Below, one piece after another: positions 5,534 through 7,504 of a stretch of 64,000 nt of DNA. Numbering within the stretch: the first letter of the stretch is position 1; every line of letters starts with the position of its first letter. The notes under the pieces are model-generated. The model searched no databases, had not been told where the DNA came from, and was given only the letters and a program-made list of their open reading frames with translations. This DNA comes from Lama guanicoe (Eukaryota): positions 806,001-870,000 of the forward strand of contig MU054466.1 in NCBI GenBank assembly GCA_013239625.1, written 5' to 3'. Position numbers and translations under genes: made by a program.

Positions 5534-7504
5534 CTGCTTTTCCTTTGAAATTTTCTCCTTTTTGATCAATTCAGAAAATTCTAGAGCGGGAAACAGATTT
5601 CTAGTAAATAACCCCCTGGCTTGTGGCCCCCAAGCTCCACAGGCCTGGCGGGGAGTCTCTGTTATGATGGGGGACCCCATGGGGGATGGGGGCCATGCAT
5701 TCTGCCCTCCTGAGCCCTGGGTGGGGAGCAGGAGGGGCCGGAGCTTGGCTACCCGGGTGCCCCCACCGCTGTCGTGCTGGTGAGCTAGCCCCCTCCCCCA
5801 GGGCTTTAAGACAGACCCTCGGGCGGGGTTCCCCCGAGCCTTCTGAGCAGGTGCTTCTGTGATCACCCCACTTTCACTGGGGACACTGAGGCATAGGAAG
5901 GCTGGGGGCTGCGTTCCTAAGGGAACCCCTCAGCCCAGCTGCCCTCTGTTAAGCCTTGTGGCCACCCCAGGAGTCAAGGTTTGCTGGCATTTGGGAGCAG
6001 GAAGCGGAGGCTCGCAGCCGGCGGGGGTGTCTGGAGACCAGCACGCTGGGGCTCTGAGCCCATCCCAGGGCCACCCTCCAGGCCCCGGGTCAGCATCAGG
6101 GGAGGGTGGGCAGGCAGCAGGACAATGCAGACTCCAGGGCAGCCATGGGGAGCCTCAGGGGAGGCCCGCAGCCCCACAAACGCCGCTCCTCCCAGGAAAG
6201 CCCCCCCAACCCACACATTCCCCTGCGGCCACAGCCGTCTGCCCACCCTGCCTCCGTCCTTCTGCGTCCACCTCTGCCACCCCTTGGGCCTTGACCCCTG
6301 CCTCAGATTTCCCTCCCCATCTCGGAAGCCCCCATCTTATCTGCCCCCTTGACCCTCCCCAAAGCCAGCTTGGACCACCTCTCCTCTGCTCAGGCGCCGC
6401 AGCAGCCCCCCGGGCCCGGTGAAACTCCTGCTCCACTCAGCATCCCCGAGACTCAGTCTCCCCATCTGTGGACCTCCACAGGCCGCTGTCAGCTTCAGGG
6501 CATGGGGTCCACGCCTGGCAGTGGGGAGCCCGCTCAGCCCTGCACCAAGACAGGCGCTGGACTCAGTACCGACGGCCTGAGTGCGAATGATTGCGGCAGG
6601 GGTGGGGAGTGGCCAGGGAGGTCCTGAGAGGTATCCCTGCCCCTCTCATCTCTGCTGCCCCACCTTCAAAGTCAATCCTTCCATCCCCGTCCATGTCGGC
6701 CGCCTGCATCACGGCCTCAGCCTCCTCGTCCATCAGTGGGGCGGTGGACCTGCTGCCGGAGATGGTGGACAGGATGTACCTGAGCCGGGGTGGGCTCAGG
6801 TCAGAGCTGAGGGGCACCTGGCCAGTGCCCAGTGGTTTACGAGGTGCTTGCTCTTCACTTTACAGCTGGAGACACTGAGGCCCAGCTGGAGAGGGGTCTC
6901 TGGGCTGAGGCCCCGTGCTGTGGCCCAGGCCCTGGTTTCCTGCCTGGCCCCATCTCCCACCAGGCCTGCTGGAGCCCAGTGGGGTACCAGGTCTTCTGGG
7001 GCGGCCGTGGTAGCTGTAGGCCAGGGATGGGGCCCGGGGCTCAGGACTCCCCGTTCCTAGCCACTGGCTGTCACTTTATCTCATTCCACTCGATGAAGCT
7101 ACTCTTGTCCTCATCCAGGGTCTGGAAGACCTTGCAGATGGCGTGCTCAGCTGCCCCAAGGCCTGGAACTTCTGCATGTTCTCAAACGTGATTTAGTTGA
7201 AGGAGCCTGGGGACAACTGGGCGCGTCACCAGGGCCACCCAACTTGGGGCCTGGCAGCCCTGGCCAGTAGGGCCAGGGCCCAGAGGGAACTCCTGCTGGG
7301 TCCTGTGCCCTCCCCCAGCCCGTGGGCTCCTGTGTCCAGCACGTCTAGTCCATGGCTGGGCGGGCCTGGGGAGCAGGTGCGGGTTGGGCCGGGACGTGCT
7401 GTACCGTGGTGCCTCAAGTTGGTGGGCAGCAGGTCTACGTCCAATGGGGATGTGCCCACAGCCAAAACCATCTTCTTCATCTGGGAGAAGAAGTCCTCGC
7501 CCAT
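5534..7504 (-). pseudogene. PVALEF: PVALEF (parvalbumin-like EF-hand containing), apparently inactivated; exons 7504-7405, 7206-7075, 6779-6664, 5580-5534
   Basis: Exons with GT-AG ends encode [33 protein letters not shown] / GSFN*ITFENMQKFQALGQL-(frameshift)-HAICKVFQTLDEDKSSFIEWNEIK / [38 protein letters not shown] / EFSELIKKEKISKEK. Two EF-hand loops; syntenic position between CEP131 and AATK; TAA at 7195-7193 and 1-nt loss at about 7147. Confidence 0.85.

What the first reader, a model, noticed from the sequence alone, without database searches (positions are those of the whole stretch)
5534..7504. PVALEF looks like a unitary pseudogene in this lineage
Seen: all four coding exons keep GT-AG sites, but exon 2 has TAA (7195-7193) four codons in and a 1-nt deletion at about 7147 (CTG AG CAC instead of CTG GAG CAC). 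The first EF loop has Ser at the usual Gly-6 (DEDKSS). Exon 4 has CAG (5536-5534) where the recalled human protein ends, so the frame reads on to 5408. Short in-frame deletions are also apparent relative to the recalled human sequence. Inference: lineage-specific loss of a poorly studied Ca2+-binding protein; several independent lesions make sequencing error unlikely.
Basis: partly seen in the sequence, partly recalled or inferred. Interest (0 to 1): 0.7.

Follow-up and report, generated by a model that had tools for sequence, protein, structure and literature searches.

The report
Camelids' long-dead PVALEF calcium gene
This genome's only copy of PVALEF, a calcium-binding-protein gene kept from sharks to whales, carries a premature stop and a frameshift that two related organisms share, and it likely died before camels and llamas split, which would make camelids a natural knockout of a gene whose job is still unknown.

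Summary
Observation confirmed; interpretation supported and widened. The four exons are the PVALEF orthologue, next to an AATK-like kinase gene, with no second copy found. Exon 2 has TAA at codon 38 and a net 1-nt loss. Both are present unchanged in deep contigs of two other organisms, so they are not assembly errors. The exon-4 read-through is in the window but was not checked in other data. The loss looks older than one lineage. A Camelus ferus gene model enters exon 2 in a way that most simply requires the same 1-nt loss, and it shares 13-16 derived residues with the window. Window and camel differ at 12 of 95 residues, matching neutral drift. That argues against a functional isoform through an internal splice acceptor, which does exist on paper. 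A fallow deer model is separately damaged in both EF loops, and pigs, manatee and human show decay. I found no paper on PVALEF loss (six searches), and no earlier scan note. An ordinary kind of event, in an ancient gene of unknown function.

The parts
7405..7504 (-). PVALEF coding exon 1 (ATG at 7504; 33 codons + 1 nt); 6-nt in-frame loss near 7442/7441 relative to the camel model and other mammals
   Evidence: tblastn to badger and camel proteins; borders; the camel model keeps the two residues
7075..7206 (-). PVALEF coding exon 2 (132 nt; 136 expected); encodes the region before the first EF hand and the first EF hand itself
   Evidence: spanned unchanged by contigs of organisms C and D
7193..7195 (-). 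Premature stop TAA at codon 38 (Tyr in 117 of 120 homologues); predicted nonsense-mediated-decay trigger
   Evidence: same in organisms C and D
7146..7150 (-). Net 1-nt loss (frame break); the shifted frame ends at TAA 7078-7076
   Evidence: tblastn frame change -1 to -3; same in C and D; inferred shared with Camelus ferus from model P0001
7151..7152 (-). Internal AG that would splice in frame past both lesions; matches the entry point of the camel gene prediction; weak pyrimidine tract (8 of 17, against 11 of 17 for the true acceptor)
   Evidence: use in RNA not shown
7098..7115 (-). First half of EF loop 1: Lys69Glu (Lys in 120 of 120; shared with camel) and Gly73Ser (Gly in 118 of 120; not in the camel model)
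6664..6779 (-). PVALEF coding exon 3 (linker and second EF hand); open frame, loop intact, conserved prolines 88 and 92 replaced by Ser (shared with camel)
5408..5580 (-). PVALEF coding exon 4; CAG at 5536-5534 in place of the stop, frame open 42 more codons to TGA 5410-5408
   Evidence: seen in this assembly only, not checked in other data
41467..46570 (+). Neighbouring AATK/LMTK1-like kinase gene (kinase exons and a 942-codon open stretch), divergent from PVALEF: synteny marker
   Evidence: Pfam PF07714 E=7.5e-6; Atlas first hit LMTK1 at 0.77, a lead only; human AATK and PVALEF share a CpG island (PMC7301993, passages)

Best explanation
This locus is the single, broken copy of PVALEF, with a premature stop and a 1-nt frameshift in exon 2, and it likely lost its function on the camelid stem, before Old and New World camels split. 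Shown: the lesions, their presence in two related organisms, and no second copy in the searches. Predicted: any normally spliced mRNA stops after 37 codons, ahead of both EF hands and two exon junctions before the end, so it would be removed by nonsense-mediated decay and no calcium-binding protein would be made. Inferred: selection was lifted early on the stem, the 1-nt loss became fixed before the split (about 16 My), and the 6-nt loss and Gly73Ser came later on this branch. The order of the TAA and the lost stop relative to the split is unknown. The likeliest cause is dispensability: the intact protein probably acts as a parvalbumin-like Ca2+ buffer or sensor that other EF-hand proteins can cover.
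For: Lesions read directly and unchanged in organisms C and D. One DNA match in the genome. Of 8 protein matches from 23 candidates, 3 are these exons. The 4 others read are calmodulin-, centrin- and calcineurin-B-like by recalled likeness (31-35% identity); 1 was not read. The closest hit to exon 3 is a Camelus ferus model (83%); window and camel group at 100/99 with a 0.17 stem. That model reads ..HY-A-ESAI: Ala can only come from exon 1's last G plus the two bases before Glu57. An intact Leu56 codon would give Val with no AG before it, while the window's broken arrangement gives Ala. 14 residues shared by window and camel differ from the commonest residue of 12 outgroup rows (12 of the 14 are absent from all 12 rows; 13-16 after allowing for alignment near the exon-1 gap), including K69E, P88S and P92S. 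Window versus camel: 12 of 95 residues differ. The neutral expectation is 12.5 at the 6% intron divergence seen to a relative; omega 0.2 expects 2.6, with 0 of 1500 simulations reaching 12. Intact lineages change far more slowly: dog-cat 5 of 95, peccary-dolphin 11 of 95. The window departs at 12 of 61 strongly conserved positions (2 of the 12 depend on gap placement), the most of 33 rows; peccary departs at 0.
Against: No camel DNA was seen: the shared frameshift rests on one automatic gene model from one assembly, and a changed donor plus a changed codon 56 could also yield it. Five in-frame AG sites lie downstream of the stop, all splice sites are still GT-AG, and EF loop 2 is intact. No spliced RNA was observed, so silence or decay of the transcript is not shown. 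The species is inferred (New World camelid), not given. The assembly is in 55,231 contigs and could miss a copy.
Confidence: 0.85

Rival explanations
1. The gene survives as a shortened isoform: splicing to the internal AG at 7152-7151 (or one of four others) skips both the stop and the frame break, giving a two-EF-hand protein that lacks about 20 residues before the first EF hand.
For: Five in-frame, stop-free acceptors exist. The camel gene prediction uses the equivalent site. Splice sites are retained and loop 2 is canonical.
Against: The part that would be kept diverges between window and camel at the neutral rate (12 of 95 against 12.5) and carries changes at near-invariant sites in exons 1-4. 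The four internal sites nearest the break have weaker pyrimidine tracts (6-8 of 17) than the true acceptors (11-12); the 7180 site has 10 of 17 but would add frame-shifted residues. The skipped stretch holds Tyr40 (117 of 120). A gene finder choosing that AG is what one expects when it avoids a stop. The only RNA-labelled contigs laid were unspliced intron pieces.
Confidence: 0.05
2. The gene is dead here, but it died only in New World camelids; Old World camels keep or separately lost it.
For: No camel DNA at the lesions was seen. The camel model keeps Gly73 and the full exon 1.
Against: The camel model's junction residue fits the same 1-nt loss. 13-16 derived residues lie on the shared stem, and camel has its own changes at conserved sites (10 of 49 departures). 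No full-length camelid protein appeared among the 120 listed hits (57 hits unlisted).
Confidence: 0.09
3. The lesions are assembly errors or a private null allele of one animal.
For: Fragmented assembly of a GC-rich region; the exon-4 change was seen in this assembly only.
Against: Organisms C and D carry identical exon-2 sequence at depth 37 and 23. A run of organism A from another study holds all 102 sampled words.
Confidence: 0.01

Closest known systems
[quoted passage not shown]
   Same: Same four coding exons in order, 65-80% identity per exon piece to the badger protein, same position beside an AATK-like gene, two EF loops at the same places.
   Different: Premature stop, frameshift, two in-frame losses, lost stop codon, and 12 departures at 61 conserved positions; no full-length product can be made by normal splicing.
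Parvalbumin / oncomodulin family (PVALB, OCM, avian thymic parvalbumin)
   Same: Human PVALEF matches thymic parvalbumin over residues 17-126 as one stretch (3fs7, E=1.4e-15): an N-terminal part without a Ca2+ loop, then two EF hands.
   Different: PVALEF is a separate family; PMC9774829 (passages) uses it as an outgroup, 'widely distributed throughout jawed vertebrates'. Calmodulins score as high over the EF pair. No PVALEF chain stood among the best 60 of 185 PDB matches.
Lineage-specific unitary pseudogenes in even-toed ungulates (for example AQP10, and PCSK9 and KRT24 losses in mammals; search listing only)
   Same: Single-copy gene at its ancestral place, shared inactivating lesions, neutral decay afterwards, separate losses in other lineages.
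   Different: Those genes have known functions. PVALEF had no peptide evidence and entered neXtProt as a new homology-based entry only in the 2019-01 release (10.1101/734657, passage), so older loss screens likely skipped it (inference).

Membership tests
PVALEF orthologue | Best sequence matches are named PVALEF proteins, well above other EF-hand families | tested here: met
   Exon 3 hits a camel model (83%) and badger PVALEF (78%); all four exons align in order to badger PVALEF; other genome matches are 31-35%
PVALEF orthologue | Lies head to head with AATK | tested here: met
   Kinase exons on the opposite strand upstream (PF07714), LMTK1 lead, CpG island at 14-16 kb; human arrangement from PMC7301993. 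The name AATK itself is a lead, not an alignment.
PVALEF orthologue | Exon borders match those of intact orthologues | tested here: met
   Intron-reading and alternative models of badger, squirrel, hyena and whales break at the same residues as the window's GT-AG sites
PVALEF protein (functional) | Open 133-134-codon frame with two canonical EF loops | tested here: not met
   Stop at codon 38, frame break, Gly73Ser and Lys69Glu in loop 1
Unitary pseudogene | Inactivating lesions in the coding sequence that are real and shared | tested here: met
   2 of 2 other-organism DNA runs laid carry them
Unitary pseudogene | No intact copy elsewhere in the genome | tested here: met
   DNA search 1 match; protein search 23 of 23 candidates scored, none above 35% outside this locus; the assembly may be incomplete
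Unitary pseudogene | At the ancestral locus with introns (not a retrocopy or a duplicate) | tested here: met
   Three introns and synteny
Unitary pseudogene | Neutral evolution after loss (dN/dS near 1) | tested here: inconclusive
   Protein-level proxy fits omega 1 and rejects 0.2-0.3, but omega 0.5 survives at the upper divergence bound; no camel codons for a true dN/dS
Unitary pseudogene | No functional protein made from any isoform | not testable with these tools
   No spliced contigs or raw RNA reads over the exons

The most novel reading that the evidence does not exclude
PVALEF has been lost twice independently in the two cud-chewing lineages, camelids and ruminants, while peccary and whales keep it intact, and it is decaying in pigs, elephants, sea cows, sloth and even humans. 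It would then be an unreported, repeatedly lost ancient calcium-buffer gene, whose pattern of loss across mammals could reveal its function in cerebellum or muscle. Basis: the fallow deer model is flagged LOW QUALITY with both EF loops damaged by lesions different from the camelid ones. No cattle, sheep, goat, horse, mouse or rat name appears among the 120 listed hits or the listed members of 20 clusters; 57 hits and some members were not shown. A shared phenotype behind the losses is untested and much less likely (about 0.15) than the repeated loss itself.
Probability: 0.55. Interest if true: 0.55.

Novelty: new member of a known kind. Interest (0 to 1): 0.38.

Why it matters
Gene losses of this kind are common, so one more is not surprising in itself. 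The value lies in the gene. PVALEF is about 61% identical between badger and sharks, yet the papers found give no experimental function; it is listed in human cerebellum gene sets (PMC11694762 supplement) and as muscle-specific in one macaque (PMC11017088). Healthy camelids would show that a large mammal lives without it. If ruminants lost it separately, a loss-versus-trait comparison across mammals becomes possible. It also warns that camelid protein models at this locus, such as the camel entry, are likely artefacts of a pseudogene.

Tried and rejected
1) searched with P0005, which proved to be an intron-reading fragment: no hits, one of three searches wasted. 2) RNA: of 4 runs laid on 6790-7400, X15 (RNA-labelled) gave only two unspliced intron-2 pieces at depth 2 and about 94% identity, stopping short of the lesions; X19 laid nothing. 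3) The first count of window-camel differences was 15 of 95; 3 came from gap placement in exon 1, and the pairwise recount is 12. The higher figure would only have strengthened the neutral reading. 4) Dating: the share of the camelid stem without constraint came out at median 0.8-1.07 with 5-95% range 0.29-2.75, so only 'probably before about 28-34 My' can be said; it uses times from PMC12127551 and a peccary-dolphin rate. 5) The tree's bootstrap had not settled and does not resolve the orders; only the camelid pair and branch lengths are used. 6) Pfam did not name the gene end at window 1-984; the CEP131 label is recalled. 7) Literature: six searches found no paper on PVALEF loss; 13 papers hold the word, 6 read as passages. 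Supplements: PMC12127551 none in 6 files; PMC11694762 only tissue gene sets, one file cut when stored; PMC9355568 none, with 14 of 26 files not searched. Genome-wide loss tables (such as TOGA downloads) were not available and may already list this loss. 8) Earlier scan notes: three look-ups, nothing relevant. 9) No fold was run: it would not decide between loss and rescue.

Full report
Observation. I read the minus strand of 5000-8200 and aligned it to PVALEF proteins returned by the tools. Four coding exons are present: 7504-7405, 7206-7075, 6779-6664 and from 5580, with GT-AG at all three introns. TAA at 7195-7193 replaces a Tyr found in 117 of 120 listed homologues. Exon 2 is 132 nt against 136 expected, made up of a 3-nt in-frame loss and a 1-nt loss at 7148/7147, after which the exon-1 frame meets another TAA at 7078-7076. 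EF loop 1 has Ser for Gly (118 of 120 Gly) and Glu for Lys (120 of 120 Lys). Exon 4 has CAG where the 134-aa human and badger proteins end and reads on 42 codons to 5408. Exon 1 lacks two codons.

Is it real? Of 24 runs listed for 6600-7560, 14 hold at least 94% of 102 sampled words, under four organism labels; 6 are flagged as possible sources. A share of 0.94 could hide two reverted sites, so I laid one run each of organisms C and D on 6790-7400. Both cover the stretch in one contig (depth 37 and 23), and the only listed differences are intronic: 7005 and 7015 in C, 7316 in D. The stop, the frame break and the Ser codon are therefore shared by three organism labels. Contigs drop rare variants, so fixation is likely but not proven. 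The exon-4 read-through has no independent check.

What it is. Exon 3's best hits are a Camelus ferus model (83%) and badger PVALEF (78%). The badger protein finds 177 homologues, 120 listed, from sharks to mammals, most of them 133-135 aa. A kinase gene lies upstream on the other strand (PF07714; LMTK1 as a weak Atlas lead) across a CpG island at 14-16 kb. This matches the human AATK/PVALEF arrangement (PMC7301993, passages). The genome holds one DNA match. Of 8 protein matches, 3 are this locus; 4 others read as calmodulin-, centrin- and calcineurin-B-like proteins (names recalled) at 31-35%, and 1 was not read. So the locus is the single orthologue. The animal is inferred to be a New World camelid: it groups with the camel model at 100/99, is too far from it to be a Camelus, and four near-identical organism labels match the four New World species named in PMC12127551 (passages).

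How old. The camel model (EPY75815.1) skips the first half of exon 2 and reads HY-A-ESAI. Exon 1 ends with one G, so Ala needs C as the next base, two bases before the Glu57 codon, with AG in front. An intact Leu56 codon would give Val and offers no AG. The window's broken arrangement gives exactly Ala-Glu from the AG at 7152-7151. The simplest reading is that camel carries the same 1-nt loss; this is inference from one automatic model, without camel DNA. Window and camel also share 14 residues that differ from the commonest residue of 12 outgroup rows, 12 of them absent from all 12. The split is put at about 16.3 My and the camelid stem at 55-60 My (PMC12127551). A rough rate comparison places loss of constraint over most of the stem, probably before 28-34 My, with wide error.

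Could a spliced form rescue it? Against it, window and camel differ at 12 of 95 residues in the part that would be kept (recounted from 15 after fixing a gap). Intron pieces from a related host differ from the window at 18 of 302 bases. At that distance neutral change predicts 12.5 residues, omega 0.5 predicts 6.4 (P=0.02), and omega 0.2 predicts 2.6 (0 of 1500 reach 12). At the upper bound of the distance omega 0.5 is not excluded (P=0.26). Intact lineages change more slowly over longer times (dog-cat 5 of 95; peccary-dolphin 11 of 95). Four of the five internal sites have weaker pyrimidine tracts than the true acceptors. No spliced RNA was seen.

Mechanism. Shown: the lesions and their sharing. 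Predicted from the standard rule for nonsense-mediated decay (own knowledge): a 37-codon frame ending two junctions before the last exon is degraded, and no EF hand is made. Inferred: selection was lifted first or together with the 1-nt loss on the stem, and later lesions accumulated neutrally. The intact protein probably works like a parvalbumin, since human PVALEF aligns with thymic parvalbumin over 17-126; Ca2+ binding is not shown for it in any paper I found.

Wider pattern. Of 33 rows scored at 61 positions conserved in at least 90% of the listed homologues, the window departs at 12, fallow deer at 11, camel at 10 of 49, pig, warthog and manatee at 7, sloth, right whale and elephant at 5, human at 4, and 8 rows including peccary at 0. 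The deer model is flagged LOW QUALITY, with a two-residue loss in loop 2 and Ser, Ser and Asp at loop 1 positions 6, 8 and 12. Peccary and whales are intact, so on the accepted tree (recalled) the deer and camelid damage arose separately. No cattle, sheep, goat, horse, mouse, rat or rabbit name appears among the 120 listed hits or the listed members of 20 clusters. This is a lead only: 57 hits, 14 members of three clusters and several clusters were not shown. Human PVALEF is also listed among the fastest-changing proteins on the human branch (PMC8664490, passage).

Literature. Six searches found no report of PVALEF loss. 13 papers hold the name. I read passages of PMC9858982, PMC8664490, PMC7301993, PMC11017088, PMC11047736 and 10.1101/734657, plus PMC9774829 and PMC12127551. 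Supplements of PMC12127551 (6 files) held no mention. Those of PMC11694762 list it only in cerebellum gene sets (one file cut). 14 of 26 files of PMC9355568 were not searched. Subscription journals, bioRxiv supplements and genome-wide loss tables were out of reach and may already record the loss. The scan's earlier notes held nothing on it.

Verdict. A real unitary pseudogene (about 0.94), probably camelid-wide and old (0.85 for the whole statement). It is a new member of a known kind of event. Interest 0.38: ordinary as a process, useful because the gene is ancient, unstudied and apparently decaying in several mammal lineages.

Noticed in passing
P0082 (Dama dama), P0056/P0059 (pig, warthog), P0071/P0079/P0080 (elephant, manatee, dugong), P0060 (sloth), P0037 (human): Separate damage or fast change in PVALEF orthologues; deer has both EF loops broken, manatee Gly114Arg and human Asp111His in loop 2.
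   Followed up: partly
P0147 (right whale), P0155 (gray whale), P0057 (humpback): Baleen whale proteins each carry a different EF-loop change (G114R/R115K, E76K, D109N), while the toothed whales examined keep canonical loops apart from I75L in sperm whale; possible relaxed selection in baleen whales.
   Followed up: no
L003:1255-1701 (G000:C4751): Intronless calmodulin copy with a fully open 149-codon frame and a few changes at normally invariant residues (by recalled comparison); a young retrocopy or an expressed retrogene.
   Followed up: no
window 14001-16000; N run 15116-15305: Strong CpG island (o/e 0.77-0.94) with a 190-base assembly gap, at the expected shared AATK/PVALEF promoter; the state of PVALEF's promoter and 5' non-coding exons could not be judged.
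   Followed up: no
window 12373-12332 (-): The first 14 residues of the camel gene model match here at 13 of 14; probably a non-coding stretch taken in by the gene finder, but it may mark an upstream exon.
   Followed up: no
window 1-984 (+): Last exons of a coiled-coil gene ending tail to tail with PVALEF; CEP131 by recall, not named by Pfam.
   Followed up: partly
window 7005 and 7015: Organism C and the 6%-diverged relative share the same letters at both intron sites, so the window's letters there are likely derived.
   Followed up: no
P0040, P0045, P0055, P0063, P0066, P0095: Annotated isoforms in hyena, whales and macaque use internal exon-3 acceptors that remove 8-9 linker residues between the EF hands.
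   Followed up: no
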